Below, piece by piece: positions 15,358-64,000 of a stretch of 64,000 nucleotides of DNA (position 1 is the stretch's first letter; every line of letters starts with the position of its first letter). The DNA lies in contig JAFWRO010000007.1 in assembly GCA_017519885.1 (NCBI GenBank), positions 39,815-103,814 on the forward strand, read 5' to 3'. The position numbers and the translations under genes were made by a program. A model generated the notes under the pieces. That model ran no database searches. It was not told the DNA's origin and saw only the letters and a program-made list of their open reading frames with translations. The stretch is from Bacteroidales bacterium. GTDB lineage: Bacteria > Bacteroidota > Bacteroidia > Bacteroidales > UBA3663.

Positions 15358-15769
15358 AATTAAATTTTTAATACCTTAAATAAATTAAACAATAAAAGTT
15401 AATAATACAAATCAATTAAAATACAATTGATAAAAACAACCAAGCAAGCAGCAAGTACACTGCCATGGTAGCACCCATTGAAATAAAAAGTTTTTTCATA
15501 CCTTAAATTGTTTTTTAAAATTGTTAAAAATACTAAGCAATTAATAAACGCGATAAAAGTAGTTTGTAGTCTCTTTTGTCTTTTTGTTTTTGTTTTGTCT
15601 TTGTAGTTTCTTTGTTTTTGACGCTGCAAAGGTACGGGGTTTTTCGTTTACTCAATCAAAAAAGGGCCAAAATCGTGCAATCGGTTGCTCTCGGAGCCTC
15701 GTTTTGGGCATTTTTGATAATTGTGACTGGCAAATAAAAGGTCTAAAAATAGAAAAACGAACGCAAAAT

Positions 15770-51315: not shown

Positions 51316-51341
51316 AGTTGTCCTGTTTATCCTCTTGCGTG

Positions 51342-51349
51342 CAAAGATA
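51342..51349 (-). promoter_or_regulatory. -7 box TATCTTTG(CA) for the GH106-like gene
   Basis: The minus strand reads GCTTATCTTTGCACGCA about 27 nt upstream of the ATG at 51315. Confidence 0.55.
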
Positions 51350-51410
51350 AGCTTTTTCAAAGCATATTCCAAATAATTTAGGGAGAAAGTGGAATCGACG
51401 CAGAATTAAA

Positions 51411-51848
51411 TGGACAAATTGGGACATAATTGGACAAATTTGGACAGTGCCAAATTTCGATTTCGTAACTTTGCAGCGAAAAAGGAATGCGGACAAAAGC
51501 GGACATTTCCGGACATATGCGGACAAATGCGGACAGTGCCAAATTTCTTTTTTGTAACTTTGCATCGTGAAAAAGCAATTTGCTGAAAGGTGACAAAAGG
51601 TGACAAATAGTGACAAAAGGTGACAGTGCCAAATTTACTTTTCGTAACTTTGCAACGTGAAAGAGGTTATGTATCGGAAAGTGACATAAAGTGACATAGA
51701 CTGACACAAACTGACAGTGCCAAATTTACTTTTTGTAACTTTGCAGCGAGAAAAAGCATTGTTCCGAAAACTGACAAAAACTGACAAAAGCCGACAAAAA
51801 CCGACAAATTCGGACATTGCCAAATTTGCTTTTCGTAACTTTGCAACG
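51411..51848 (+). repeat. Five tandem ~90-bp units, each with 4-5 phased 10-bp GACA iterons plus a conserved ~35-bp core carrying a TAACTTTGCA -7-like box
   Basis: The cores GACAGTGCCAAATTTnnTTTTCGTAACTTTGCAnCG end at about 51478, 51567, 51657, 51748 and 51848. Iteron flavours differ by unit: TGGACAAATT, GCGGACAnnn, GGTGACAAAn, (A/C)(G/T)TGACAnAA, and CTGACAAAA/CCGACAAAA. Confidence 0.9.
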
Positions 51849-52020
51849 TAAAACGATTAATGGTCGCACAGCTCAAAATTATAAAAAAATTGAATCAAAA
51901 AATTATAAGAAGAAAGGGACGAAATTGACCACAACTATTTTGGTACAATCCTCCTTTGATAATTTTAAAACTAATTTTCTTATAATTTTGAGCGCAGCGA
52001 CCCCAAAAATAAAAAAAACA

Positions 52021-52887
52021 ATGAGACCAAGAGTACTGACAATGGACTACATCAACGTGCCGATGGCACTGCTGCAGGAGGTCAAGGACGACCCCTTGCA
52101 GTGGAGCCTCGTCGCCCTCAGTGTAGCCATGAAGTGCCTTAGTCCCAGCAGCACCTACATCTTCACCAGTGAGAAGAAGTTCCGTGGTGACTTCCATCTC
52201 GGCTACACCAAGGCGCGAAATCTCCTCGAAGCCATCCGCGAAGGCAACAGCCTGTTCCAGATGACGACATGTCCCAACGGCAGGACAATCATCGTTGCCC
52301 GCTCGCTGAAAAAGATTTACGCCTCCAAAGTCATCCTCAAGGACGGACGCAAGAGCCTTGAGATGGTCGTAGGAAAGATAAGGTGCTGCACCCGCGAAAA
52401 CCTCCACGTCACAGAAATCGAAAGCGAGATGCGCCAACTGCTTCTCCTGACCAACATCAGTGCCAAGACCCGCGCCGACGAGTTACAATCGAAGGGGCTT
52501 CCCCTCACGGGAAGTGCTTCTCATGCGGCAAAGACCATCTTGTCAGTGAACTACCTGGCCAGGGCAACAGGACGCAGCCCTCGCACCGTCAGTCGAATGA
52601 CCAAGGCCGCCCGTCAGCAGCGTGTGATCAACGTCATCCAGTATCCGCTCGTCCGGTGCTGCGATGACATCCTCCACACCCTGCCACCTGACTCGGTCGG
52701 CAAGGTCATCCGCATCGGTTTCCTCGGCTTCACTCGTCGCTGCAACGACTACCAGCTCCTCTCGTGGGACTGGCGCCACCGTTTCCAGCACATCCTCTAC
52801 GCCCATCGTCGCCGTCTTACTCAAAACCTCGTCCTCCGTCATGGCGAGGTTCTGAGCCAGACCGATCTCCACGCTCTCTACGATTAG
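52021..52887 (+). CDS. Hypothetical protein with a putative HTH (possible iteron-binding or initiator-like protein)
   Basis: ORF 51817..52887, trimmed to MRPRVLTMDYINV because the upstream part reads through the repeat array. The HTH-like segment is SVNYLARATGRSPRTVSRMTKAARQQ. GACA iterons flank it on both sides. Confidence 0.6.
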   Translation: MRPRVLTMDYINVPMALLQEVKDDPLQWSLVALSVAMKCLSPSSTYIFTSEKKFRGDFHLGYTKARNLLEAIREGNSLFQMTTCPNGRTIIVARSLKKIYASKVILKDGRKSLEMVVGKIRCCTRENLHVTEIESEMRQLLLLTNISAKTRADELQSKGLPLTGSASHAAKTILSVNYLARATGRSPRTVSRMTKAARQQRVINVIQYPLVRCCDDILHTLPPDSVGKVIRIGFLGFTRRCNDYQLLSWDWRHRFQHILYAHRRRLTQNLVLRHGEVLSQTDLHALYD

Positions 52888-52915
52888 AAAACGCGACAAA
52901 AACTCGACAAGCAAT

Positions 52916-52949
52916 CATTGTTAATTGTTAACTGTTAATTGTTAATTGC
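52916..52949. repeat. TTGTTAA heptamer microsatellite
   Basis: CATTGTTAATTGTTAACTGTTAATTGTTAATTGC, the same motif as at 37681 and 38596. Confidence 0.8.
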
Positions 52950-53093
52950 TCTCGGGTCCACTTTGTCCTCCTATAAATAAACGAAGGGTCTAAGAGAGAG
53001 AGTTTAAAGAATGGGAATACGAAAAATGAGTGTGTGCGTAAAAAGAAGAGAGGAAGTAGATGAAAGGTGGGAAGCGAGACAAATTCTCCTGGA

Positions 53094-53173
53094 GGAAATA
53101 GTCGGGGCTTTTAGCCCCCCTACCCCCCCTCAAAGGGGGGCGGGGTAGGCTAAGCCCCACTAAGACTATTTCC
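53094..53173. repeat. 80-bp GC-rich imperfect palindrome (REP/MITE-like hairpin)
   Basis: GGAAATAGTC-GGGGCTT-TTAGCC-CCCCTACCCC..caaa..GGGGTAGG-CTAA-GCCCC-(5-nt bulge)-GACTATTTCC. The arms pair along almost the whole length. Confidence 0.8.
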
Positions 53174-53258
53174 AAGAGAATTTGTAGAGCGAAGCATCTT
53201 GAGAGTGATTTTATTGATAAACAACCAACCAAAATTATTAACCCTTTAAAAAAAAAGT

Positions 53259-53747
53259 ATGATTTTCATCAAACAAATCACCACAGTTGAGGAGCTCTGG
53301 AACACAGCAGGGGCTCCCACCGGACAGATCGCCGTCGATGCCGTCGTCGATTACGTCAAGCGAGTAAACAGTCATTCCGCACAGCAAGTCGCCTTCTACC
53401 TGAACGTCGATCAGCGTTTCCTGAACGAGACGATGAAGTTGTTCGTAGGCGTCAGCCTCAAGGAGTTCATCATGCAATGGCGTATGCGCCAAGCTCTCGA
53501 CCTGCTCGATGACGAGAACCTCTCAGTCGAGGAAGTGGCCCATCGCTGTGGATTCCGCCGAGTAAAGAACCTCATTGCCGCCATCCACGCACGTTTCGGC
53601 ACCACCCCGTATGCCTATCGCAATGGCTCCGTACTCCGCAACGGCAACTACCGATTCAACCAGGAGACGCACCAGCGCAAGAGCATCATCGAGAATGCTG
53701 AGAAACTCCGCTCCCGCAACGAGAAACCCACTCCGAAAGAAGAATGA
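53259..53747 (+). CDS. AraC-family helix-turn-helix domain protein (short, 162 aa)
   Basis: FIMQWRMRQALDLLDDENLSVEEVAHRCGFRRVKNLIAAIHARFGTTPYAYR is a typical AraC-type double-HTH C-terminal region. Confidence 0.8.
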   Translation: MIFIKQITTVEELWNTAGAPTGQIAVDAVVDYVKRVNSHSAQQVAFYLNVDQRFLNETMKLFVGVSLKEFIMQWRMRQALDLLDDENLSVEEVAHRCGFRRVKNLIAAIHARFGTTPYAYRNGSVLRNGNYRFNQETHQRKSIIENAEKLRSRNEKPTPKEE

Positions 53748-53764
53748 TCCATCTCCAACGTCGG

Positions 53765-54177
53765 CATAACCTTTTTTGGCCAAGATTGGTTATGCTCCCA
53801 TCGCTGCATACCCTTTCTTGGCCAAGATTGGTTATTCTCCCATCGCTGCATACCCTTTCTTGGCCAAGATTGGTTATGCTCCAACCGGAGCAAGCATTCT
53901 GTCGGCCGTCAGAGTACTCTATCCAACCGCGGCATAACCATTCCTGGCCAAAACTGGTCATTCTCCTCCCTCCGCATACCCTTTCTCGGCCAGGATTGGT
54001 TATGCTCCCATCGGCGAAAGCATTCTGTCGGCCGTCAGAGTACTCCATCCAACCGCGGCATACCCATTCTTGGCTAACTTTGGTCATTCTCCCATCGTCG
54101 CATACCCATTCTTGGCCAAAATTGGTCATGCTCCTGCAGAAGAATACCCAATCTTGGCCAAGATTGGTCATGCCTCG
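53765..54177. repeat. Tandem array of about 8 copies of a 42-bp partially palindromic unit; two units carry an extra 42-bp insert
   Basis: The unit is CATAaCCtTTcTTGGCCAAGATTGGTTATGCTCCCATCGCTG, with a nested palindrome CATAACC...TTGGCCAA...GGTTATG. The insert AGCATTCTGTCGGCCGTCAGAGTACTCnATCCAACCGCGG occurs twice. Long ORFs are open on both strands (53744..54238 + and 53686..54246 -). Confidence 0.9.
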
Positions 54178-54212
54178 ATTTCCACCACGCATCCTATCCA
54201 TTTTGGTTCTGC

Positions 54213-54400
54213 GCAATCGGTTGAATCGCGAAAAATAATGAGCCACAACAATCTTTTTTCTCGTTGAATGAGCATTATATCAAAAAAATGCGTATATTTG
54301 CACGCAGAAATGAATTCCTATCATTTCACATCATTCTACCCATTTCGGTTCCGACCTGCCATGTGACGGGCGTTAGCGAAGTTGTGCAAGAAGATTGCCA
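54213..54400 (+). repeat. Conserved ~190-bp module, copy A: GCAATCGGTTGAAT box, -7 promoter box, 18-codon ORF
   Basis: It aligns with 56745-56930. Shared blocks are GCAATCGGTTGAAT, GCATTAT.TCAA.AAAAATGCGTAT.TTGCA, CTTCTACCC, GTGAC.GG and A.CGAAGTTGTG. The -7 box TATATTTG is at 54293-54300. The micro-ORF 54310..54366 encodes MNSYHFTSFYPFRFRPAM. Confidence 0.75.
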
Positions 54401-54668
54401 TTCTATTTGGGCGTGACTATAAGAGCATCAGCAAGCATATCAATAAAGCGCGTAAAGAGGAATTTGCAGGTTCTGTGGTAGTCGCAAAATTTGCGAATAC
54501 CACTCGACATGGAAATGAGCATTATATAAAAAATGAAGAAAGAGAATTATAAACAACAAATCGAGCAATTTTGCCTTAAAGAAAAGCAAAACAAGCATTC
54601 TAAATGTTAAATTTGCAAAATATATGCAGATTCTCAAAATAAAAGTTCATTAATTGGGATTTTATCTT

Positions 54669-54676
54669 TATATTTG
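54669..54676 (+). promoter_or_regulatory. -7 box TATATTTG(CA) for the AAA15 ATPase gene
   Basis: CTTTATATTTGCACCG lies about 23 nt upstream of the ATG at 54699. Confidence 0.6.
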
Positions 54677-54698
54677 CACCGAGAAAAACGCCAAATAT

Positions 54699-55991
54699 AT
54701 GATACAGGAAATAAAAATCAGAAACTTTTTATCGTTCAAAGATGAAGTAAAATTCAGCTTTGAGGCTACAAACGATAAGTTTGCCGAAGATTCCCAGGTA
54801 GTAACAATCAACGAGAATACCAGACTGTTACGATTTGCCATCATCTACGGCTACAATGCTTCGGGAAAATCTAATTTGATAAGCGTTTTAGATTTTTTGT
54901 CTTACTTCTGGTCTGCTAAACCTAACGACATGGATTCAAAGACCGGAGTAATACCTTTTAAGCTTGATGGCATATCTTCAGACAAACCTTCAAGCTTTGA
55001 GGTAGTATTCTTTGTGCAAGATACCAAATATTGCTATCAGTTGGAATTGGATCAGCATCAGGTATATTTAGAGAAGCTGTCATATTACAAAACGACTCAG
55101 CCCATCATGTTGTTTGAAAGGACGCTGAAAGATGGGCAGTCGGATATTCAATTTAATCCAAAGGCAGAAAAGATAAGTTCCGCAGCAAAAGATATGATAA
55201 GCGTAAATTGCCTGAAGAATACGTCTTTCTTCGTAGCACGCAACCAGGTGAACGTGAACCTTCCGATTATCGATGCGGCAAAAGATTGGATGAGGAAACA
55301 GCTGATGCCTGTGATTTCACCGACAACTGGTCTAACTTCCTACGCCCAAAAGAAAGCTTCGGAAAACAGATCATTGATAAACTACATCGTAAAATTTCTG
55401 CATGAAGCCGATTTCAACGTTACAGATGTTTCAGCCAATGTCATTAGCAAACAACTGACAGATGATGCGGTAAAGTACCTAACAGAAGAGAGTGACATCG
55501 CTGATGAAGAGACTGCAAGGGAGGTTGAAAGAATCAAAAAAGAACGAACGATCAAGCAGATTCAGACGGTATTTGAACACACGGTAGAAAATGACAATGG
55601 AACAGAGACCTACCAGATGGACAAAAAGGAAGAATCCACAGGAACGATGCGGACTTTTGGAATCGAAGCAGCCCTTTATGAGGCACTTAAGGACGAAGCA
55701 GTTCTACCGATTGATGAATTAGAGACATCGCTACACCCAATGCTGTTAGAAAAGATCTTGTTTGAATATCTGAAGACACCTTCAAGATCTCAGCTTATTG
55801 TCACAACGCACAATGACGGGTTGCTGGATTTGCTTGATGACTTAATCCGAAAAGACTCAGTCTGGTTTACCGAGAAAAAGAAGTCCGGCATTACAGACCT
55901 TTACAAGCTCACAGATTTCCGAGGGATCAATCGACTTTCGTCAATAAGGGAGGCATACCGAAACAAACGTTTTGGAGCCACAATGAGATAA
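54699..55991 (+). CDS. AAA15/AAA_21-type ATPase (OLD/Abi-like ABC ATPase)
   Basis: ORF 54654..55991, trimmed to MIQEIKIRNFLSFKDEV. Walker A is GYNASGKSN. Walker B/D-loop is VLPIDELETSLHP. The H-loop region is LIVTTHN. Confidence 0.85.
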   Translation: MIQEIKIRNFLSFKDEVKFSFEATNDKFAEDSQVVTINENTRLLRFAIIYGYNASGKSNLISVLDFLSYFWSAKPNDMDSKTGVIPFKLDGISSDKPSSFEVVFFVQDTKYCYQLELDQHQVYLEKLSYYKTTQPIMLFERTLKDGQSDIQFNPKAEKISSAAKDMISVNCLKNTSFFVARNQVNVNLPIIDAAKDWMRKQLMPVISPTTGLTSYAQKKASENRSLINYIVKFLHEADFNVTDVSANVISKQLTDDAVKYLTEESDIADEETAREVERIKKERTIKQIQTVFEHTVENDNGTETYQMDKKEESTGTMRTFGIEAALYEALKDEAVLPIDELETSLHPMLLEKILFEYLKTPSRSQLIVTTHNDGLLDLLDDLIRKDSVWFTEKKKSGITDLYKLTDFRGINRLSSIREAYRNKRFGATMR

Positions 55992-55995
55992 AACC

Positions 55996-56718
55996 ATGGA
56001 GGAAAGAGAAATTGCAGAAGGCATAGAGAAGCGTCCCTATTTTGAAACTGTCTCTCCTGTTTCGATGCCATTACCAGATGACGGAACGAGGGAGATGGGC
56101 GAGCTTTACCCATTTCTCATTTGTGGAGGCACAAACACTGAGCGCTATTATTTTACGCATATCAACGACAAAACAGAATACAAATTCAACATAAGGCCAA
56201 GGTACTTTGGCGATGAGTCGAATTATACCAACGCTTTCCCCAAAAGAATTAGAGAAGTGCTCAGTGCCAATAACGATGCGAAGATATATTGTGTATTCGA
56301 TTGGGACACGATATATGGTGATGGGACAAAGCTAAAGAAACATGAGGCTTTTGAAAAGCAATTCCAAACAGAAATCCTCAATGGAACAGTTACGATATGT
56401 CCCAGTATGCCTTGCATTGAGTATTGGTTTCTACTTCACTTTTGGGATTATACCAAGCTTTTGAAGAGCTATGGAGAAGTTGCGGACTTGTTGGCTCCAC
56501 ACTTGAAGCCGTGCTTCCCGTATGAGGATATCTCTTTGAAGAAGCTATTGAAAACCGAGAAGTATCTTATAGACCCTACGTGGGTCGAGAATCTATGCGC
56601 CGAAGGGAAACTTGCGTTAGCGATTGAGCGTGCCGAGAAAAATATTGTTGCTGCTGTTGCAAATGGAACTCTAAAAGAACAATCGTTCTCCTATGTTTAT
56701 AAGGTTTTTAAGAAGTGA
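55996..56718 (+). CDS. RloB-like (Toprim-related) protein, partner of the AAA15 ATPase
   Basis: 240 aa, starting 4 nt after the ATPase stop. FLICGGTNTERYYF resembles the RloB N-terminal (CEG.kTE..YF) block, and a later acidic block is IYCVFDWDT. Confidence 0.65.
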   Translation: MEEREIAEGIEKRPYFETVSPVSMPLPDDGTREMGELYPFLICGGTNTERYYFTHINDKTEYKFNIRPRYFGDESNYTNAFPKRIREVLSANNDAKIYCVFDWDTIYGDGTKLKKHEAFEKQFQTEILNGTVTICPSMPCIEYWFLLHFWDYTKLLKSYGEVADLLAPHLKPCFPYEDISLKKLLKTEKYLIDPTWVENLCAEGKLALAIERAEKNIVAAVANGTLKEQSFSYVYKVFKK

Positions 56719-56744
56719 GCCTCTTTTCTCCCTCCCTTTGTCCC

Positions 56745-56930
56745 CGTGCAATCGGTTGAATTATGAAAATAGACTCAAATTACACATTTTTTCTAATTGT
56801 TTGCGCATTATGTCAAGAAAAATGCGTATCTTGCAGCCCGAAATATGAAGTTTCTTCATCTTTCATCCTTCTACCCCACTTGTATTAGGCCAGTTCTGTG
56901 ACTGGCCATAACGAAGTTGTGGATACAAAT
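56745..56930 (+). repeat. Conserved ~190-bp module, copy B
   Basis: Homologous to 54213-54400. The -7-like box is TATCTTGC. The micro-ORF 56845..56901 encodes MKFLHLSSFYPTCIRPVL, with the same length and the same TGTGA stop context as copy A. A GGCCAG-ttctgtga-CTGGCC hairpin spans the stop. Confidence 0.75.
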
Positions 56931-56964
56931 AGCAATTGAGGATTAATTTGTAGCGTTAATCATT

Positions 56965-57609
56965 ATGAATGAAATATCATCAAAACCCATACAACATTTC
57001 AGGAAAGGCGACGCCTTTGTAGAAATGGCACCACGCCCTCTCGTTTTCATGGAGATAAACGAGGTGGACAAGAGTACCGAGAATATGGATTTCTGTATTG
57101 TCACATGGTATATGCTTGACGAAAAGGGACTCAACGCTCAGCGACGATTCCCTATGGCTGCTCGTGATGGTAAGTTCAGCGACTTTGAACCGATTTCCCG
57201 CCGCCTTCTCAAAGAAGCTAAAAGCTTGATGCGCCAATATGATGCGGATGTAAAACTGTTGACAGAAAAGAAAGAGGTAAAGTCGCTGTACCAAGAATAT
57301 AATCGTAAGTTGATAGAGTTGCTTCCCGATGCCGAAGACAGACTAGAACTTGCAAAGCAAGAAGAAAAGAAGATTATCACAAACAAATGGCTCGACTGTG
57401 AAGATGATAACTACTGGGTGGAAGAAAACTCAGAACTAAGTGACAAGTATGCCACACTTGTATGTGTAAGAATCGATTCTTACGATGACAAGAATGATAA
57501 AACCATTACTAAGCAATCCATCTACCTGCGTAACAACTGCCCGTATGGTTGGAGCACACTCGTAAAAAGTGGTGCCAAGTATATGGTGATTGAGAAGCCA
57601 AAGAGGTAA
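56965..57609 (+). CDS. Hypothetical protein (214 aa) between the two defence-type modules
   Basis: Uninterrupted ORF with no recognisable motifs, a charged central helical segment and no signal peptide. Confidence 0.6.
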   Translation: MNEISSKPIQHFRKGDAFVEMAPRPLVFMEINEVDKSTENMDFCIVTWYMLDEKGLNAQRRFPMAARDGKFSDFEPISRRLLKEAKSLMRQYDADVKLLTEKKEVKSLYQEYNRKLIELLPDAEDRLELAKQEEKKIITNKWLDCEDDNYWVEENSELSDKYATLVCVRIDSYDDKNDKTITKQSIYLRNNCPYGWSTLVKSGAKYMVIEKPKR

Positions 57610-57715
57610 AACATTATTAATACTCGCAATTATTTTGCAGTCGTCCTAATAATGGGTAGTACTATACTTCCTTCGGTATTTCGGGCAGCAATAATAATTT
57701 TTTAGGATTACCGAT

Positions 57716-58936
57716 ATGGACAACCTATCACATTTCCACTCGTTAGAAGAACTGATACGTGCGCTGGACAGGGAGCGCCGACTGCTTCAAGCCCTGTTTC
57801 AGGACAGGAAGAAGCTGTCGTTCCGCTATGACCTGGCACGCGAATTGGCGAGCAAGCGTGATGAAAGCCTTGAGTTTCTGCGACGACACGGCATCATTCG
57901 TGAGAATATCGACTTTGTAGAACTGGAGGACGTATATCTGAAGTTCTTCGAGGATGTGCTGGAGGTGAACGAGGAGATCAGTGTGGCTAGCGTCAAGGAG
58001 AGCATCGACAGCTTGAACAATGCCATAGACTACTATCTCAGCGAGAACAATCCCGGCAGGAAGTACGGCTATCTGCGCGATGTTAAGCGGATACTGCGTA
58101 GCATTGCGCTCACGACCCTGAGGAACGTCATCGACCTGAAACGTAATATAGACAACACCTACAAGAACGAGCCGACCTTTGCCATCAAGAAAAAGAAACT
58201 GGTGCATCTCGATGAAAAGCGTCAGGACATTGCGGCCCTGATCAACGAATGCGAGAGGGTGATTGACGAGAAACAGACCACGTTCTTTATGGTGGCGATG
58301 GACGTACAGTTGAAAGACATCGTGACGGACGTGAAACTGCAACTGCGCGAGGTATATCACAACCTATTGGAGCTCGACCGACAAATCATCAACTACCTGA
58401 ACCTCATAGAGTACCAAAGCCGTCTGTTTCAGAAGGTGCAGAAGCTGAAATACCTGCGCGACCAGATGCTGCTCGACACGAATACCGACATACGGGCAAA
58501 GCTGCAGACGAGGAATCCCGTATGGATGGAACCACGGCCGAGATATGCGCTGAAGGTATCGCTCTCCATGCTCCGAAATTCGGAAGAAGGCCTCAGGGTG
58601 CTGCAGGATGTAGCCAAAGGAAAGGGCAATAGCCGTCTGAGGAAAGGGAATCTGGCCGAACCGCTGACGAAGAGCGAGCTGACAGAACAGCAGGAGGTGC
58701 TGCAGATGGTTGACGTAAGCGAGGTGAAGAATGCGTTCATGGCTTCGAGCGACCACCTGTTTCACTTCGTGATGAACTATTCCGGCTACAGAATCAAGAT
58801 GGACGATGAGGCGAAGCTGGTGCTCTTCTGTCAGATTGCCACACAGTATCTTGACGAACTGCATATCGATGACGAATTCCGTCAATATGGAGCCATCGAG
58901 TATCCCGTTATCTATCCACACTCAAAGATGATGTAA
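57716..58936 (+). CDS. jetA: JetA-like (kleisin/MksF-like) subunit of a Wadjet-like system
   Basis: 406 aa, helical and charged, first gene of a tightly packed 4-gene operon. The assignment rests on position and size only; no motif could be verified by eye. Confidence 0.5.
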   Translation: MDNLSHFHSLEELIRALDRERRLLQALFQDRKKLSFRYDLARELASKRDESLEFLRRHGIIRENIDFVELEDVYLKFFEDVLEVNEEISVASVKESIDSLNNAIDYYLSENNPGRKYGYLRDVKRILRSIALTTLRNVIDLKRNIDNTYKNEPTFAIKKKKLVHLDEKRQDIAALINECERVIDEKQTTFFMVAMDVQLKDIVTDVKLQLREVYHNLLELDRQIINYLNLIEYQSRLFQKVQKLKYLRDQMLLDTNTDIRAKLQTRNPVWMEPRPRYALKVSLSMLRNSEEGLRVLQDVAKGKGNSRLRKGNLAEPLTKSELTEQQEVLQMVDVSEVKNAFMASSDHLFHFVMNYSGYRIKMDDEAKLVLFCQIATQYLDELHIDDEFRQYGAIEYPVIYPHSKMM

Positions 58937-58941
58937 ACAAT

Positions 58942-59481
58942 ATGCGCTATACGAAAGAAATATTCGACATACTGAGCAAGGGTGGTTTCATCGCCCAGAA
59001 CTCCATCTCGCAGCAGCGTTCACACCTGTACGATGCCATAGAGGATGACTTCAACGACTATCAGGAGTACTTCAGCGGCATAGGGTTCCAGTTGGAGGGT
59101 GGCAATGGCTACTACTATTTCTCAAGGGCAGAGAACAGGGTGGATCTGACTGACAAAGTGCAACGCCTGGCACAGTGGATTGACCGTGTGGATTTCCTCA
59201 AGACGTTCAACAACACCTTTGCATCGGGCTTTACGTTCCGCAAGTCGAACATCCTCGAACAGTTCTCAAGCGACATCGAGTTGAAGGAAAAGGCACGCAA
59301 CCTATATACGGATGTGAAGACCAACGAAGAGAAGATCGACAAACTGGTAGGCGACCTGGAGCGAATGGGGTTCGTGGAGCTGGAGAACGAGCTGGACGGC
59401 ACCTACAAGGTGACTGCCGCCTTCCACTATATCGAGGAACTGATAGATTGTCTCACCATCATCGAAACGGAAAAGTCATGA
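58942..59481 (+). CDS. jetB: JetB-like (DUF4194/MksE-like) subunit
   Basis: 179 aa. The block YQEYFSGIGFQLEGGNGYYYFSR resembles the DUF4194 pattern (yf..iGl.L..de.eGyayL). It starts 5 nt after jetA-like, and its stop overlaps the next ATG. Confidence 0.6.
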   Translation: MRYTKEIFDILSKGGFIAQNSISQQRSHLYDAIEDDFNDYQEYFSGIGFQLEGGNGYYYFSRAENRVDLTDKVQRLAQWIDRVDFLKTFNNTFASGFTFRKSNILEQFSSDIELKEKARNLYTDVKTNEEKIDKLVGDLERMGFVELENELDGTYKVTAAFHYIEELIDCLTIIETEKS

Positions 59482-62400
59482 GAGCACTACGCAAGATCGC
59501 CTTTATCAACAGTGCCAATATACGTTATGCAGAAGTGAAGCTGGACGGCAACGTTCACTTTATCGGCACGCAGGGTGTGGGCAAGAGCACTTTGCTCAGG
59601 GCCGTCCTGTTTTTCTACAATGCCGACAAGCTGCATCTGGGCATACCCAAGGAGATGAAGTCGTTCGACGAATTCTATCTGCCCCATGCCAATTCGTACG
59701 TGGTCTATGAAGTGGAGCATGAGCACGGACCTTTCAGCATCCTTGTGTTCCGCTCGTCGGGCAGAGCATGTTATCGGTTTGTAGATGCCGCCTACCGAAA
59801 AGAATGGCTGGTGGACGAACGCGGCGAAGTGACGGCAGAATGGAAGGTGATACGCGACAGGCTCGGCAGTGCCTACATGAGCAAGATCATCGACCGCTAT
59901 GAGCAGTATCGCGATATCCTCTATGGCAACAAGCAGACTGTAGGGAAAGAGTTTGCGCGCTTCCAGCTGCTGGAGACCAACAGTTACCAGAATATCCCCC
60001 GAAGCATACAGAACGTGTTTCTCAACTCACGCCTGGATGCCAATTTCATCAAGGACATCATCATCCGTTCGATGAGCGATGAAGAGGCGAATATCGACCT
60101 GGGGTATTTCCGCAGGCAGGTGGCAGACTTTGAGCAGGAGTACAAAGACATCTCCTGCTGGTACAAGCTGAACCAGAAGGGAGAGTCGATGGTCAGGAAA
60201 CAGGCGGATGCTGTAGTGAAAGCCTACCACGAACTGCTGTACATGAGGCAGCAAATAGAAGAATTGTGCGGTGAGCTGAAATATGCCGAACGGGTGTCGC
60301 GAGAGAAACTCCCGCTGATCGAAGCTAGGATTGCAGAACTGACCCAGGAGCAAGACCGGCAAAAGCGCCTCGTGTCGGAGATCCAGCAAAAGCATGATGC
60401 TGAGAAAACGAAGCTGAACCAGGACCAGGGTGTTGTGAACGACAAACTGAAACGTCTGAAGGAGCGGAAAGAATACTATTCTGCTCAGCAGATAGAAAGC
60501 GTGCTGAGCCGCTGTGAAAGAGAGCAGGGTCTGAAGGCCGAACTTGAAAGTCTCAAGGACAAGCTGGCAGACCTGACAGCACGGTTCAACGATGTCACCA
60601 CGAAATACAAGGCCTTGCGCCAGAATATCACCCATCAGCTTGAATCGTTCCGACAAGCGCAGCAGCAACGCATCCTCTCGGAAGAGGAAGAAAAGCAAAA
60701 GACTGACGAACGTTTGCTGAAAGCCTTCACGGTTGCGAGGACAGAGATCGAGCAGTCTTTTACAGAGAAGATGACAGAAGCTTCGAATGTAATCGATTCC
60801 GTGAAGGCGGAGATGAATGATTGCGAAAAAGAACTTCTAAAATTAAAGTATCTCGTACCGTTCAAAGAAGAAAAGGAGTCGCTGAATCAGCAACTGTATG
60901 AGCTGCAACTCAGCGAGAAAGAGCTGACGGGCAAGATAGGCTCATTGGCTTCTGACATCAACCGCATTCAGGCAGAATATGACAAGAAAGAGGCTGAAAC
61001 GACTGCTGACTACCAACGAAAGCTGGAAGAAAAACAAGCGGAGATTGAGAAATATTCAGCACAGATTACCGCTATTGACAGGTTGCTTGAACGCACAAAG
61101 GGATCACTCTACGAATGGCTTGAAGAGAACAAGATCGACTGGGAACAGAACATCGGCAAGATCATCAACGAGGAGAAGGTGCTTTATCAGACAGGTCTGC
61201 ATCCGCAGATGGCCGAAGGTGCTTCGCTGTATGGCGTGAAGCTTGCCTTGACCGACCTGCCGCTTAATGTCAGAAAACCAAAGCAGCTTCAGGAAGAGAA
61301 GTCGAACCTGGAGAAGGAACTGAAGCGAAGAAAAGAGGAATGTCAGCAGATTCAGCAACAGCAGGAAAAGGCCATCGAAGCGTTGAAACACCAGTTCGCA
61401 CCCCAGATAAAGGAACTTCGCCAGCAGAAGTCGCTTGCTGAAACGGAGCTTCGAGTGATACCTCAACGACGAAAGTCTATCGCTGTCAGAATCGAAGACT
61501 ATGAGGCGAGAGCCAAGCAAATCATCGAGGAAAGACAGCATGCACTCAATACGCGTCAGCAGGAGTTGGCCCACAAATTATCATTGGCACTAAGCACTCT
61601 TGAGAAGCTAAATGCCGACAAGCAGAAGCAGTTGAATGGTGCAGAGAAGAAGTATCGTGAAGCCGAGGACGAAAATGTCAAAGTGCATGCCGAGCGTGTA
61701 GCTACTATCAATGCCGAGACCAAGGTTAGCGAGAAGAACGCCGATACTGAACTGATGAGGCTGAAGCAACAAGAGATAGACGAGCTGAAAGGCCGTGGTG
61801 CAGATACAACGCTTGTGGAGGACTGCAAGGCGAAGATAACGTTGGCCGAAGATGAACTTCGCTTTATTGACGCGCATCGCAAACTGGTGTATGACTATCA
61901 GCGAGACAAGGAAGAGCTCTTTGACCAGGAGGACAACTTGAAGAATCAGAAGAAAACGCTTTCAGAAAAGCTGTTGCAACTGAATGAGAAGTATCAGCAA
62001 CGCAAACTCAAGTACGACCAGCAGCTGGCTGCCTTAGGCAGGGAACTGGCAGAACGCAGAGATGAACAGAAACATCTGGATGAAGAATTGCAGAAAGCTG
62101 ACCGTTTTGCTCATGACGAGAACCTGTGCCCACCGATGTATGCCGATGCGAAGGAGAAACAGACGTTGCGCACACCCGGACAGGCCGTTGACGAGCTGAC
62201 GGGCATCATAGTTCAACGTCAGTCGCGCCATAACCAGTTCAAGCAGAGCGTCAATGTGTTCAAGAGCAATTTCTCGGCGAAGAACACTTTCAACTTCAGA
62301 ACAGAGCTGACGATAGACGATGACTACCTTGATTTCGCCAGCAATCTCGACGACTTCCTCATCAATAACAAACTGGAAGAGTATCGGCGCAGGACCAGTG

Positions 62401-63125
62401 TACGGTATGTGGATATCCTGGCGCGAGTGTCGAAGGAGATGGGCGAGCTGACGCGCCATGAGTCGGACGTTGACAAAATTATTCACGAGATCAACAGAGA
62501 TTTCAAGGAACGCAACTTTGTCGGAGTCATCAAGCTCATTGCCTTGCAGTCGATCCCCTCAACCGACAAAATGGTACAGTTGATGAAGCGCATCAAGGAA
62601 TTCAATGATGAGAACCAGTTTGCCATGGGTGAGCTGAACCTGTTCTCAACCGTCAACAGGGACGAGGTAAACCAGAAGGCAGTCAGTCATTTGCTCGACT
62701 TCATGAAGTCGCTAACGGATAATCCTTCGCGTCATTATCTGACGCTCTCCGACTTGTTCCAACTGCAGTTCCGCATCATCGAAAACGACAACGATACAGG
62801 ATGGGCAGACAAACTGTCGCATGTGGGCAGTGAGGGTACCGATACGCTGGTCAAGGCGATGATCAACATCATGCTCATTAATGTGTTCAAGGAGAAGGTA
62901 AGCAGAAAATTCGGCGACTTCTTCATCCATTGCATGATGGACGAGATAGGCAAGCTGCATCCCCAGAATGTCAAGGGAATACTCGACTTTGCCAACGCTC
63001 GCAACATCCTGCTCATCAATTCATCACCTACAACCTATAACGTCTCTGACTATCGCTACACCTATCTCTTACAAAAGGACGGAAAGTCGAAGACCATCGT
63101 TCATCCATTGATTTCGCAGAAATGA
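59478..63125 (+). CDS. jetC: JetC-like SMC/Rad50-family ATPase
   Basis: ORF 59448..63125, trimmed to MRALRKIAFINS (ATGA overlap with the jetB-like stop). Walker A is GTQGVGKST. A K/E/Q-rich coiled coil of roughly 700 aa follows. The C-terminal head has GSEGT, and Walker B is FFIHCMMDEIGKL. Confidence 0.8.
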   Translation: MRALRKIAFINSANIRYAEVKLDGNVHFIGTQGVGKSTLLRAVLFFYNADKLHLGIPKEMKSFDEFYLPHANSYVVYEVEHEHGPFSILVFRSSGRACYRFVDAAYRKEWLVDERGEVTAEWKVIRDRLGSAYMSKIIDRYEQYRDILYGNKQTVGKEFARFQLLETNSYQNIPRSIQNVFLNSRLDANFIKDIIIRSMSDEEANIDLGYFRRQVADFEQEYKDISCWYKLNQKGESMVRKQADAVVKAYHELLYMRQQIEELCGELKYAERVSREKLPLIEARIAELTQEQDRQKRLVSEIQQKHDAEKTKLNQDQGVVNDKLKRLKERKEYYSAQQIESVLSRCEREQGLKAELESLKDKLADLTARFNDVTTKYKALRQNITHQLESFRQAQQQRILSEEEEKQKTDERLLKAFTVARTEIEQSFTEKMTEASNVIDSVKAEMNDCEKELLKLKYLVPFKEEKESLNQQLYELQLSEKELTGKIGSLASDINRIQAEYDKKEAETTADYQRKLEEKQAEIEKYSAQITAIDRLLERTKGSLYEWLEENKIDWEQNIGKIINEEKVLYQTGLHPQMAEGASLYGVKLALTDLPLNVRKPKQLQEEKSNLEKELKRRKEECQQIQQQQEKAIEALKHQFAPQIKELRQQKSLAETELRVIPQRRKSIAVRIEDYEARAKQIIEERQHALNTRQQELAHKLSLALSTLEKLNADKQKQLNGAEKKYREAEDENVKVHAERVATINAETKVSEKNADTELMRLKQQEIDELKGRGADTTLVEDCKAKITLAEDELRFIDAHRKLVYDYQRDKEELFDQEDNLKNQKKTLSEKLLQLNEKYQQRKLKYDQQLAALGRELAERRDEQKHLDEELQKADRFAHDENLCPPMYADAKEKQTLRTPGQAVDELTGIIVQRQSRHNQFKQSVNVFKSNFSAKNTFNFRTELTIDDDYLDFASNLDDFLINNKLEEYRRRTSVRYVDILARVSKEMGELTRHESDVDKIIHEINRDFKERNFVGVIKLIALQSIPSTDKMVQLMKRIKEFNDENQFAMGELNLFSTVNRDEVNQKAVSHLLDFMKSLTDNPSRHYLTLSDLFQLQFRIIENDNDTGWADKLSHVGSEGTDTLVKAMINIMLINVFKEKVSRKFGDFFIHCMMDEIGKLHPQNVKGILDFANARNILLINSSPTTYNVSDYRYTYLLQKDGKSKTIVHPLISQK

Positions 63126-63982
63126 AGATTACGGCATCACTCATCAACAGGCTTATCCGTCTTCGCAACGGTGAGAGACTGCCCGCCAGCCAGCTTCGTA
63201 CCGAGTGGATTGATGAACTAGTGCGCGAAGGGGTGATTGTAAACACCTCTCATGGCAGCCAGCGTACCATCTTTGTGTCTCAGCCAGACGCATTCCAACA
63301 AGCTCTATCCGCCATCGACGAAAGACTATCCGATCTGGATTTGCTTCAAGACACACTGCAGACTGACGAGACATCTCGTTCTGTTCAAGCTTCTGTTACT
63401 GGCAATTCAAAACTCATAGCCATACGTTCATGTCCTGGTTTCCCTGTCAACTCATACGAACCAATACCTTGTATGCTGAATGGAAGCGAAATAACGGTAA
63501 ACCCTGCCGAAGGCAGTTTTGTGTTTATAGCCGATTGGCAGTCGTTTGCCATTCCCTGTGACGTCATTGTTGTAGGCATTGAGAATATGGAGAATTTTCG
63601 TATGATTCGCCAGCAGCGAGCATTGTTTGAGCAGACGATTGGCTCCCACCGTTTGCTGTTTGTCTCCCGTTATCCACAATCCACTGACCTTCGTTCCTGG
63701 CTGCAGTCCATCCCCAATCGCTATGTCCATTTCGGGGATTTCGATTTGGCTGGAATACACATTTTCCTCACCGAATTTCAAACCTTTTTAGGAGAGCGCA
63801 GTTCGCTCTTTATACCTGAAGATATAGACCAAAAGTTGGCTAATGGTTCCCTGGAAAGGTATAACGCGCAATACCCCAAATTCAATTACCTAACAACAGA
63901 AATTCCTGTTCTTCAGCATCTTATTGATACAATAAACATGTATCATAGGTGTTATGATCAAGAAGGATACATAAATGCTTAA
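63122..63982 (+). CDS. jetD: JetD-like Toprim (DUF2220-type) nuclease subunit, short form
   Basis: 286 aa with an ATGA overlap with the jetC-like stop. It has VIVVGIENMENFRMI and YVHFGDFDLAGIHIF, which fit the ENxxxF and GDxDxxG Toprim signature of JetD/Topo VI-A-like proteins. Confidence 0.7.
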   Translation: MKITASLINRLIRLRNGERLPASQLRTEWIDELVREGVIVNTSHGSQRTIFVSQPDAFQQALSAIDERLSDLDLLQDTLQTDETSRSVQASVTGNSKLIAIRSCPGFPVNSYEPIPCMLNGSEITVNPAEGSFVFIADWQSFAIPCDVIVVGIENMENFRMIRQQRALFEQTIGSHRLLFVSRYPQSTDLRSWLQSIPNRYVHFGDFDLAGIHIFLTEFQTFLGERSSLFIPEDIDQKLANGSLERYNAQYPKFNYLTTEIPVLQHLIDTINMYHRCYDQEGYINA

Positions 63983-64000
63983 TCTTGTAATAATATGTCA

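What the first reader, a model, noticed from the sequence alone, without database searches (positions are those of the whole stretch)
54213..56930. Duplicated ~190-bp module (promoter + conserved 18-codon ORF) brackets the AAA15/RloB pair
Segments 54213-54400 and 56745-56930 are clearly homologous direct repeats. Shared blocks are GCAATCGGTTGAAT, GCATTATnTCAAnAAAAATGCGTATnTTGCA, CTTCTACCC, GTGACnGG and AnCGAAGTTGTG.

Each has a Bacteroidota -7 box, followed within about 10 nt by an 18-codon ORF. The two ORFs have identical length and the same stop context:
- MNSYHFTSFYPFRFRPAM at 54310-54366
- MKFLHLSSFYPTCIRPVL at 56845-56901
- shared pattern: H..SFYP...RP

Copy A precedes the ATPase gene and copy B precedes the orphan 214-aa gene, so the two-gene Abi-like module is flanked by the repeat. 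Possible roles are a leader-peptide or attenuator regulatory unit, a small toxin/peptide gene, or a cassette-boundary recombination site.

A fragment (GAGCATTATATAAAAAATG) recurs at about 54517. A 14-nt identical string (CGTGCAATCGGTTG) plus TTGTGACTGG occurs at 15674-15731, hinting at a genome-wide repeat family.
Basis: seen in the sequence. Interest (0 to 1): 0.65.

Follow-up and report, generated by a model that had tools for sequence, protein, structure and literature searches.

The report
Junction repeat in a defence-gene array
A ~177-bp non-coding unit with a promoter-like core sits in front of each gene cassette in an anti-phage defence island of uncultured rumen Bacteroidales; its copies recombine with one another, and its 18-codon ORF shows no sign of encoding a peptide.

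Summary
The duplication is real. Copy A (54211-54386) and copy B (56746-56922) are 71% identical over 179 nt (E 2e-12).

They belong to a family of at least 17 distinct copies found in relatives. The family is confined to one island type in rumen Bacteroidales: 2 of 185,579 GTDB species, and single-copy depth in the source metagenome.

In every locus the module lies 5' of a cassette. Cassettes seen are AbiL, SLFN/AlbA_2, DUF1016/YhcG, an unknown 193-aa gene, a RhuM relic, and always the conserved 214-aa gene that heads variable defence operons (Wadjet here). The module's 3' end tracks the downstream gene. Its ~60-nt core is near-invariant and the copies are mosaics (Rm >= 11).

The 18-codon ORF shows no codon-position bias and is cut short in two lineages. 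Its "stop context" is the loop of a hairpin that has only marginal covariation support. There is no Rfam match and no recombinase nearby. The 15674 match is short and scores at chance level on its own.

Best reading: a portable promoter/5'-leader that also serves as the homology patch for cassette gain, loss and exchange. The promoter function and any RNA role are inferred; no transcription start site could be resolved.

The parts
54211..54386 (+). Module copy A, the divergent A type. Contains block 1 GCAATCGGTTGAAT (54213-54226), canonical -7 box TATATTTG (54293-54300), mini-ORF (54310-54366), predicted hairpin 1 (54306-54329) and hairpin 2 (54345-54379).
   Evidence: nhmmer E 1e-38; alignments; consensus fold.
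54392..54512 (+). Internal fragment of a RhuM-family gene, truncated at both ends and fused directly to the 3' end of module A. It is the relic of a former cassette.
   Evidence: Contigs from other genomes match this stretch and continue as ..NDMIWLTRQ|QIAILFG.. upstream and ..HG|AIEGKTQTH.. downstream (loose ends). That these motifs are RhuM-like is my own reading from memory; Pfam, PHROGs and NCBIfam gave no hit on the short fragment. The whole stretch ~54230-54550 is absent from the 94%-identical relatives L004/L005.
54513..54536 (+). Partial third module copy: an A-type core piece, AATGAGCATTATAT--AAAAAATG.
   Evidence: 22 of 24 bases match module A; 0 of 300 shuffles reach the score; family D7.
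54654..56718 (+). AbiL cassette: AbiLi (AAA_21/AAA_15; probable start ATG at 54700) and AbiLii (RloB, 55996-56718). It has its own canonical -7 box at 54669.
   Evidence: Pfam; PADLOC AbiLi 4.8e-71 and AbiLii 4.6e-19; -7 motif list.
56746..56922 (+). Module copy B, the common B type. Contains block 1 (56748-56761), core with TATCTTGC (56827-56834), mini-ORF (56845-56901), hairpin 1 (56840-56864) and hairpin 2 (56880-56914; inner stem GGCCAG/CTGGCC, 56888-56907).
   Evidence: nhmmer E 1.6e-57; folds.
56965..57609 (+). Conserved 214-aa gene of unknown function. It is always directly downstream of a module in this clade and always at the head of variable defence genes.
   Evidence: No Pfam, PADLOC, PHROGs, NCBIfam, PDB-sequence or fold match.
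57716..64000 (+). Wadjet-like condensin operon running off the window: JetA-like 406 aa, MksE/JetB, DUF3584/JetC, and a 286-aa last gene with DUF7281 (the JetD_C hit is sub-threshold).
   Evidence: Pfam: MksE 4.4e-42, DUF3584 6.7e-69; last gene DUF7281 1.3e-07, JetD_C only E 0.086. The 406-aa first gene has no family hit; JetA is inferred from its position in the operon.
51407..54173 (+). The 'platform' that precedes the first module in every module-bearing locus whose DNA extends that far upstream: iteron-like repeats (51407-51808), a 288-aa multi-winged-helix-like protein (52021-52887), a MarA-sized AraC/HTH_18 protein (53259-53747), and a 42-nt palindromic tandem array (53764-54173).

Best explanation
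The ~177-bp module is the shared 5' control region of the cassettes in a defence-gene array.

Each cassette consists of a module plus its gene or genes. The module supplies an upstream element (block 1, G[T/C]GCAATCGGTTGAAT, a near-palindrome at about -95), a promoter-like core (GCATT-N11-AATGC overlapping a -7-type box), and roughly 85 nt of common leader that can form two hairpins.

Because every cassette carries the same ~60-nt near-identical core in the same orientation, the copies recombine with each other. This is homologous recombination or gene conversion, within a genome and between strains. It adds, deletes and swaps cassettes between the fixed platform (winged-helix protein, AraC-like regulator, palindromic array) and the fixed 214-aa gene.

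The 18-codon ORF is a by-product of nucleotide conservation, not a peptide gene.

Shown here: family membership, position, boundaries, linkage of the 3' end to the downstream gene, mosaicism, decay relics, and absence of coding constraint.

Inferred: promoter activity, regulation (possibly by the adjacent AraC-like protein), and recombination at the module being the actual route of cassette turnover.
For: 1. Real family. There are 16 distinct copies in the aligned set plus one more in L030, from metagenome, ENA, NCBI and Logan contigs.

2. Position. The module is always on the gene strand, about 43-105 nt upstream of a start codon. It precedes SLFN_AlbA_2/HATPase_c_4 (L007, L008, L024), DUF1016/YhcG, i.e. 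PDC-S02 (L011), a 193-aa gene (L030), the RhuM relic (window), and the 214-aa gene in every locus.

3. Sharp boundaries. Homology starts at about TTTGYCCYCGTGCAATCGG and ends at CGAAGYTNTR. Outside these points the sequence follows the neighbouring gene.

4. The last ~15 nt co-vary with the downstream gene: ATAACGAAGTTGTGG before the 214-aa gene, TAAGCGAAGCTTTGT before AlbA_2. The 5' sub-blocks are not tied to the upstream cassette. The unit therefore belongs to the downstream cassette.

5. Mosaicism. 121 of 595 site pairs fail the four-gamete test, giving Hudson-Kaplan Rm >= 11 in 179 nt. L008_2 combines three parental types. Between the window and L004 the adjacent gene is 99.8% identical but the module's 3' part is only 87%.

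6. Turnover and decay. L004/L005/L010 lack copy A and keep only a block-1 relic, ATCGGTAGAATTATCAAAA (1 of 300 shuffles reach its score). L009 holds an internally deleted AlbA_2 cassette between two modules. L011 keeps an RloB 3'-end relic. L018-L021 have a single module whose 5' part matches first-copy types and whose 3' part matches the 214-aa type.

7. Promoter-like. Copy A has a canonical TAnnTTTG 17 nt before the ATG, the same geometry as other genes in the window.

8. RNA-run contigs run from inside the module (56859, 56905) into the 214-aa gene.

9. No coding constraint on the ORF.
Against: - No transcription start site could be resolved. Only assembled contigs of metatranscriptomes were available, and their ends coincide with de Bruijn branch points of the repeat.
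- B-type copies have a non-canonical -7 box (TATCTTGC). The only TTTG lies 23 nt upstream of it (my count on the sequence), longer than the 19-21 nt -33/-7 spacing I recall for Bacteroides promoters.
- The AbiL cassette uses its own promoter and has only module relics in front of it.
- The module is not more conserved than third codon positions of the neighbouring gene. The near-identity of the core could therefore reflect gene conversion rather than selection for function.
- Homologous recombination would need no dedicated sequence. The invariant block 1 at the exact left edge is not explained by a promoter alone.
- Copies A and B of this window are only 71% identical, which makes them poor substrates for recombination with each other.
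Confidence: 0.55

Rival explanations
1. Site-specific recombination site. The module, or its invariant block 1 or core, is the att/attC-like target of a recombinase encoded elsewhere, and cassettes move as excised units, as in an integron.
For: - Direct repeats at every cassette junction.
- A razor-sharp left edge at an invariant near-palindrome, CAATCGGTTG.
- A block-1 relic left exactly at the junction where the module is missing.
- A GCATT-N11-AATGC inverted repeat in the core.
- 5' and 3' sub-blocks reassort across the core.
- The A-type core GTATATTTGC resembles, from my memory only, the GTANNTTTGC target consensus of CTnDOT-type integrases.
Against: - No integrase, resolvase or transposase domain is recorded for any called gene in the fetched loci.
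- The 288-aa platform protein models as winged-helix repeats, not as a recombinase.
- Recombination breakpoints are spread along the module (Rm >= 11), not at one point.
- The module stays with the downstream gene and sits 5' of it, with none after the last cassette (L012).
- Cassette relics show imprecise deletions (RhuM fragment, RloB tail, truncated AlbA_2).
- GTANNTTTGC is essentially the generic -7 promoter context in this genome.
Confidence: 0.12
2. Cis-regulatory RNA leader. The transcribed ~85 nt (hairpin 1 over the AUG, hairpin 2 with the TGTGAC loop) together with the upstream ORF forms an attenuator or sensor that sets expression of each defence cassette. This would refine the main explanation rather than replace it.
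For: - Both copies and their relatives fold into the same two hairpins.
- 91.9% of cells are paired, against 31-62% when the partners are slid by 1-3 columns.
- Three pairs change on both sides; only 6 of 500 shuffles reach that.
- GGCC[A>T]G...C[T>A]GGCC differs in a compensated way between the window and L004.
- There are no indels in the leader across the copies.
- TGTGAC is invariant in the 16 aligned copies.
Against: - The RNAalifold covariation term is +0.66, i.e. no net support.
- Percentage paired is 91.9 against 90.6 in shuffles (31 of 500 reach it).
- Pair 60-71 is unpaired in 5 of 13 sequences, and hairpin 2 carries two mismatches in the L018 type.
- L030 has TAGTGAC in place of TGTGAC.
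- Folding z-scores are only -1.1 to -2.5.
- There is no terminator or obvious alternative structure and no Rfam hit.
- The upstream ORF is not length-conserved.
Confidence: 0.15
3. Functionless duplication. The upstream region of the 214-aa gene was copied passively each time a cassette was inserted or rearranged, and the copies are kept similar only by gene conversion.
For: - The module is no better conserved than synonymous sites of the neighbouring gene.
- Relics decay.
- The AbiL cassette works from its own promoter.
- The family is restricted to a very narrow clade.
- In sister lineages the slot is occupied by an HTH_3 gene and there is no module.
Against: - The core and block 1 are nearly invariant across the 17 copies, while the sub-blocks between them differ by 10-25%.
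- Orientation and distance to the downstream start codon are maintained in front of four unrelated genes.
- Full copies persist in front of genes that have no other -7 box.
Confidence: 0.13
4. Small-protein or toxin gene: the 18-codon ORF encodes a functional peptide.
For: - The ORF is open in most copies.
- The ATG sits 17-18 nt after the start of the -7-like box, as at real genes in this window.
- M-K-F-H-H-L-S and I-R-P-V recur.
Against: - There is no third-position excess (9:8:11), and pairwise codon differences are 110 synonymous against 314 non-synonymous.
- A premature stop at codon 13 occurs in the L018 lineage, which is seen on five contigs. The ORF has 17 codons in L030.
- The conserved residues coincide with hairpin stems and the promoter-proximal core.
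- The peptide is not hydrophobic in the way type I toxins are.
Confidence: 0.03

Closest known systems
Integron cassette arrays, including sedentary chromosomal integrons that store defence genes
   Same: - A fixed platform followed by a one-directional array of unrelated, exchangeable cassettes.
- Cassettes are separated by copies of one repeat family.
- The cargo is defence genes, and arrays differ between close strains.
   Different: - There is no IntI or any other recombinase.
- The repeat is 177 bp, lies 5' of its cassette, carries a promoter-like core and stays with the downstream gene. attC lies 3' of mostly promoterless cassettes.
- Breakpoints are scattered, as in homologous exchange, rather than falling at a G|TT-like point.
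- There is no attC-type folded bottom-strand architecture.
Core-gene-flanked defence hotspots (E. coli, P. aeruginosa, Listeria ICR; PMC10121019, PMC10250203, PMC10059834 seen by title and abstract only)
   Same: Variable defence systems sit between conserved anchors (platform and the 214-aa gene on one side, chromosomal genes on the other) and are exchanged between strains, probably through flanking homology.
   Different: Here a dedicated non-coding unit is repeated inside the hotspot, in front of each cassette. The abstracts I saw for those hotspots do not mention such an internal repeat.
Restriction-linked ORF (rlo) slots of type I R-M loci (from my own knowledge)
   Same: The same cast of inserted genes appears: RloA/RloB-type AbiL pair, RhuM, DUF1016/YhcG, AlbA_2/HATPase_c_4.
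   Different: Those genes sit between hsd genes, without a shared repeated leader.
Promoter-bearing intergenic repeats such as neisserial Correia elements and other MITEs (from my own knowledge)
   Same: A short repeated non-coding unit that can supply a promoter and hairpins to adjacent genes.
   Different: - There are no terminal inverted repeats or target-site duplication.
- The unit is not dispersed: it is single-copy in depth outside the island, with only 2-3 copies per genome, all in one locus and one orientation.
Leader-peptide attenuators and upstream-ORF leaders
   Same: A short ORF lies immediately after the promoter-like core and overlaps predicted hairpins upstream of the regulated gene.
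   Different: There is no codon-level conservation, no regulatory codon run, no terminator/antiterminator pair, and the ORF is truncated in some lineages.

Membership tests
Integron (cassette array with attC) | An IntI-type tyrosine recombinase next to the array. | tested here: not met
   No Phage_integrase or any other recombinase domain in the window genes 48850-63982 that were scanned, nor recorded for called genes of the fetched loci. The platform protein is winged-helix-like.
Integron (cassette array with attC) | The repeat lies 3' of a promoterless cassette and travels with it, with crossover at one fixed point. | tested here: not met
   The module's 3' end co-varies with the downstream gene. 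There is no module after the last cassette (L012). Breakpoints are spread along the unit, Rm >= 11.
MITE / Correia-like element | Terminal inverted repeats, target-site duplication, and many dispersed copies. | tested here: not met
   No inverted repeat between the module ends. Depth equals that of the flanks in the source metagenome. Only 2 GTDB species carry it, and always in this island.
Any described RNA family (Rfam 15) | A covariance-model match. | tested here: not met
   0 hits at gathering score over the whole window. Nothing on the modules at E <= 5.
Structured cis-regulatory RNA (new family) | Base pairs supported by compensatory changes beyond what phylogeny gives. | tested here: inconclusive
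   Covariation term +0.66. 3 pairs with double changes (6 of 500 shuffles reach this), but percentage paired is 91.9 against 90.6 (31 of 500) and some lineages have broken pairs.
Leader peptide / small protein gene | ORF length and amino-acid sequence under purifying selection. | tested here: not met
   Variable sites 9:8:11 by codon position. 110 synonymous against 314 non-synonymous pairwise codon differences. Stop at codon 13 in L018-L022, and a 17-codon ORF in L030.
Bacteroidota sigma-ABfr-type promoter | A -7 box TAnnTTTG, with or without a -33 TTTG. | tested here: inconclusive
   Copy A: perfect TATATTTG. B-type copies: TATCTTGC, one T short. The motif is intergenic-enriched in this window. 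The -33 spacing is atypical by my own count.
Bacteroidota sigma-ABfr-type promoter | A mapped transcription start a few nt downstream of the -7 box. | not testable with these tools
   Only Logan contigs of metatranscriptomes were available, and contig ends are repeat branch points.
Defence island / hotspot | Known defence systems clustered together, with variable content between close relatives at the same anchor. | tested here: met
   AbiL, Wadjet, type I R-M-like genes with OLD-family ATPase and GmrSD, DEDDh plus PIF1, PDC-S02, AccI/Eco57I R-M and GmrSD, all found behind the same 214-aa anchor.

The most novel reading that the evidence does not exclude
The platform (multi-winged-helix protein, MarA-sized AraC regulator, lineage-specific palindromic 42-nt array) plus the repeated 177-bp module would form a previously undescribed, integrase-less cassette-capture and expression system of Bacteroidales. 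The module would act as the functional equivalent of attC plus Pc. It would be a dedicated, protein-recognised junction (block 1 and the GCATT-N11-AATGC core) that both drives and mobilises defence cassettes, possibly under control of the AraC-like protein.
Probability: 0.12. Interest if true: 0.75.

Novelty: new variant of a known kind. Interest (0 to 1): 0.4.

Why it matters
Defence islands are known to be mosaics, but how individual systems are slotted in and expressed is mostly unexplained outside integrons and phage or satellite hotspots.

Here a small non-coding unit marks every cassette junction. It carries the likely promoter, and it shows direct traces of recombination, gain, loss and decay among close strains of an abundant but uncultured rumen lineage. 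If the module really is both the expression signal and the exchange handle, it offers:
- a simple, recombinase-free way to build a defence array;
- a sequence tag for finding new defence genes in Prevotella-like genomes (whatever lies between two modules);
- a candidate portable promoter for Bacteroidales genetics.

If it is only a duplicated upstream region, the finding is ordinary.

Tried and rejected
- **Genome-wide repeat family.** Rejected. nhmmer and blastn over the window find only the two copies plus the 23-nt relic. Depth in the source metagenome equals single copy. The strict three-block pattern gave 0 hits in viral and genome collections. The 24-nt core hit 2 GTDB species. No match in plasmids.
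- **The 15674 match.** The 14-mer alone scores E 0.15. The 11-mer GCAATCGGTTG occurs twice outside modules in 0.8 Mb against 0.19 expected, and both times as a GCAA-TCGG-TTGC hairpin. I leave it as unexplained, not as a family member.
- **Peptide gene.** Rejected.
- **Copy A's ORF as the N-terminus of the downstream RhuM-like reading frame.** Rejected. Full-length relatives continue differently upstream of 54392, so module A is fused to an internal gene fragment.
- **Module as a degenerate HTH_3 gene** (the HTH_3 gene occupies this slot in sister lineages). No similarity by nhmmer or by eye.
- **Modules behind more distant platforms** (L031-L035). None found at E <= 10.
- **Function of the 214-aa and 288-aa proteins.** Sequence, profile and fold searches gave nothing significant.
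- **Transcription start site from public RNA runs.** Not resolvable.
- **Literature.** Two searches found no description of this element.
Full report
**1. Observation**

The two segments are homologous direct repeats.
- blastn of each copy against the window finds the other at 71% identity over 179 nt, E 2e-12.
- A profile built from 13 copies places the units at 54211-54386 (A) and 56746-56922 (B).
- Both 18-codon ORFs exist.
- Copy A has a perfect TAnnTTTG -7 box at 54293. In this window that motif is a real promoter signal: 36 of its 63 occurrences fall in the 14% of DNA that is intergenic, and 13 of them lie 10-200 nt upstream of a same-strand gene.
- Copy B has only TATCTTGC.
- The fragment at 54513-54536 is a genuine partial third copy: 22 of 24 bases match, and 0 of 300 shuffles reach that score.
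- The 15674 string scores at chance level on its own (E 0.15), and no module is detected there.

**2. Context in the window**

The genes around the repeats are as follows.
- A GH106 gene at 48850-51372 on the minus strand.
- Iteron-like 10-nt and 90-nt repeats at 51407-51808.
- A 288-aa protein at 52021-52887.
- A MarA-sized AraC/HTH_18 protein at 53259-53747.
- A tandem array of about ten 42-nt palindromic units at 53764-54173.
- Module A.
- A 120-nt internal fragment of a RhuM-family gene at 54392-54512.
- The 23-nt module relic.
- AbiLi/AbiLii (AAA_21 and RloB; PADLOC 4.8e-71 and 4.6e-19), with their own -7 box at 54669.
- Module B.
- A 214-aa gene of unknown function at 56965-57609.
- A Wadjet-like condensin operon running off the window. 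JetB (MksE) and JetC (DUF3584) have strong Pfam hits. The first gene (406 aa) has no family hit, and the last carries DUF7281 with only a sub-threshold JetD_C match.

The source is a ruminant gut organism. The nearest named records are "Bacteroidales bacterium" MAGs from rumen and omasum, and homologues of the 214-aa protein are labelled Prevotella sp..

**3. More copies, and what they flank**

Exact-protein look-ups, one metagenome pattern scan and one genome scan gave 16 distinct copies in the aligned set plus one more in L030. All lie in the same island type.

The arrangement in every module-bearing locus that extends far enough upstream is: platform (288-aa protein, AraC-like gene, palindromic array), then one or more module-plus-cassette units, then module plus the 214-aa gene, then variable defence genes.

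Cassettes between modules:
- a 501-aa SLFN_AlbA_2/HATPase_c_4 protein (L007, L008, L012, L024);
- an internally deleted remnant of that gene (L009);
- a DUF1016/YhcG nuclease, i.e. PDC-S02, followed by the last ~30 nt of RloB (L011);
- an unknown 193-aa gene (L030);
- AbiL (window, L004, L010).

Genes behind the 214-aa gene:
- Wadjet (window, L004, L012);
- a type I R-M-like set with an OLD-family ATPase and GmrSD (L009, L011);
- a DEDDh exonuclease with a PIF1 helicase (L010);
- an AccI/Eco57I R-M pair (L018-L021).

L018-L021 have a single module directly between the platform and the 214-aa-family gene. The 94%-identical relatives L004, L005 and L010 lack copy A and the RhuM relic. At that junction they keep only ATCGGTAGAATTATCAAAA, a degenerate block 1.

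**4. Distribution**

- The module is not a dispersed repeat. In the source metagenome its depth equals that of its flanks (15.7), while the conserved start of the 214-aa gene reaches about 460 because many other species carry that gene.
- The 24-nt core occurs in 2 of 185,579 GTDB species representatives.
- Loci whose 214-aa homologue is 70-81% identical (L013-L017) have no module. There a small HTH_3 gene, sometimes followed by an AlbA_2 gene, sits in front of the 214-aa gene.
- More distant platforms (L031-L035) keep the winged-helix protein, the AraC-like gene and a palindromic array, but have no module.

**5. Anatomy**

- Homology among copies begins at about TTTGYCCYCGTGCAATCGG and ends at CGAAGYTNTR. 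Beyond these points the sequence follows the neighbouring gene.
- Block 1 (GCAATCGGTTGAAT) is identical in 15 of the 16 aligned copies.
- A core of about 60 nt, TTGCGCATTATGTCAAAAAAAATGCGTATCTTGCAGCCCGAAATATGAAGTTTCATCATCTTTCA, is almost invariant among B-type copies. The sub-blocks on either side differ by 10-25%.
- The last ~15 nt co-vary with the downstream gene, whereas the 5' sub-blocks are not tied to the upstream cassette. The unit therefore belongs to the cassette on its 3' side.

**6. Recombination**

- Among 14 copies, 121 of 595 pairs of informative sites fail the four-gamete test. The minimum number of recombination events is 11 in 179 nt.
- Individual copies are visible mosaics. 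L008_2, for example, has a 5' part like L007_1, a middle like L008_1 and a 3' part like the window's copy B.
- The module has a different history from the gene beside it. Between the window and L004 the first 540 nt of the 214-aa gene are 99.8% identical, but the 3' part of the module is only 87%.
- The module is not more conserved than synonymous sites of the gene. The uniformity of the core may therefore owe as much to gene conversion as to selection.

**7. The ORF**

- Across 12 distinct ORF sequences, variable sites fall 9:8:11 on codon positions 1, 2 and 3.
- Pairwise codon differences are 110 synonymous against 314 non-synonymous.
- The L018 lineage, seen on five contigs, has TGA at codon 13. 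L030 ends one codon early with TAG.
- The "same stop context" is TGTGAC, which lies in the loop and closing pair of a predicted hairpin.
- There is no evidence for a selected peptide.

**8. RNA structure**

- Single-sequence and consensus folds give two hairpins. One covers the ATG and the other carries the TGTGAC loop.
- Support is weak. The RNAalifold covariation term is +0.66. 91.9% of cells are paired against 90.6% in shuffles (31 of 500 reach it). Three pairs change on both sides (6 of 500 reach it). Pair 60-71 is broken in 5 of 13 sequences.
- There is no Rfam match, and no terminator follows.
- A structured leader is possible but not demonstrated.

**9. Transcription**

Metatranscriptome contigs cover the 214-aa gene and begin inside the module at 56859, 56905 and 56922. 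The 3' half of the module is therefore present on RNA that is contiguous with the gene. Contig ends at 56820 and 56838 recur in DNA runs and are repeat branch points. No transcription start site can be read.

**10. Recombinases**

- No recombinase domain is recorded for any called gene in the fetched loci.
- The AlphaFold2 model of the 288-aa protein (pLDDT 82.5) resembles multi-winged-helix proteins only weakly, with a best E-value of 0.03.
- The 214-aa protein has no sequence or fold match: 0 Foldseek hits at E <= 0.001, and an AlphaFold2 model with pLDDT 72.7.

**11. Interpretation**

The best-supported reading is that the module is a portable 5' control region, promoter-like core plus common leader, carried by each cassette. 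Its near-identical core also serves as the homology patch through which cassettes are gained, lost and exchanged between the fixed platform and the fixed 214-aa gene.

Shown: position, boundaries, linkage to the downstream gene, mosaicism, relics, and lack of coding constraint.

Inferred: promoter activity, any regulation by the AraC-like protein through block 1, and recombination at the module as the causal route of turnover.

Rivals:
- a true site-specific att-like site, which the invariant sharp left edge favours, while the absence of a recombinase, the scattered breakpoints and the imprecise relics count against it;
- a regulatory RNA leader, which is compatible with the main reading;
- a functionless duplicated upstream region;
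- a peptide gene, which is the least likely.

**12. Comparison and novelty**

The system works like an integron array in outline: a platform, then repeat-delimited cassettes of defence genes. It fails the integron's defining tests (no IntI, repeat on the wrong side, no fixed crossover). It is not a MITE, and it matches no Rfam family. It fits the known kind "defence hotspot with exchangeable cargo", with an unusual internal junction repeat.

I rate it a new variant of a known kind, of moderate interest. The family is very narrow and its function is untested.

Noticed in passing
window 53764-54173; L031 11650-12030; L033 8700-9080: A tandem array of about ten 42-nt units follows the MarA-sized AraC/HTH_18 gene. 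Each unit is a ~30-nt palindrome plus a ~12-nt spacer. Distant relatives keep the gene and the array, but each lineage has a different palindrome, which suggests that protein and site co-evolve. This is the deepest region of the locus in RNA-run contigs (depth 22-73 against about 4). Gene callers annotate it as a 164-aa ORF, although long ORFs lie open on both strands.
   Followed up: partly
window 51407-51808 and 52021-52887: Iteron-like 10-nt repeats ending in GACA, with a 90-nt period repeated three times, lie upstream of a conserved 288-aa protein. That protein's AlphaFold2 model resembles multi-winged-helix DNA binders only weakly (best E 0.03). The layout is reminiscent of a plasmid Rep-plus-iteron module. 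The pair recurs with the AraC-like gene at different chromosomal sites (L031-L035).
   Followed up: partly
window 56965-57609: The 214-aa protein belongs to a narrow, well-conserved Prevotella-like family (686 homologues, all of the best 120 at >= 70% identity). It has no domain, PDB or fold match. It always sits at the head of variable defence operons. In sister lineages it is preceded by an HTH_3 gene, with or without a SLFN_AlbA_2/HATPase_c_4 gene. It is a possible hotspot anchor or shared defence accessory.
   Followed up: partly
window 54392-54512: An internal fragment of a RhuM-family gene is truncated on both sides and lies between a full module and a 23-nt module relic. The whole stretch ~54230-54550 is missing from the 94%-identical relatives L004/L005.
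   Followed up: yes
window 15674-15731; L033 ~917 (minus strand): GCAATCGGTTGC forms a GCAA-TCGG-TTGC hairpin at two places outside any module. The 11-mer occurs twice in 0.8 Mb against 0.19 expected. At 15721 it is followed by TGTGACTGGC, as in the module loop. This is either a heavily deleted solo relic or coincidence; it is unresolved.
   Followed up: partly
window 57716-58936: The first gene of the Wadjet-like operon (406 aa, in the JetA/MksB position) has no significant Pfam, PADLOC, PHROGs or NCBIfam hit, although JetB and JetC are recognised. It may be a divergent kleisin.
   Followed up: no
L018 14773-16713; L024 14040-14705: The far end of some islands carries a second AlbA_2 gene, or its Fic-like_C relic, followed by a gene of about 201 aa. 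I did not compare that gene with the 214-aa family. If the two are related, the variable region would be bracketed by paralogous pairs.
   Followed up: no
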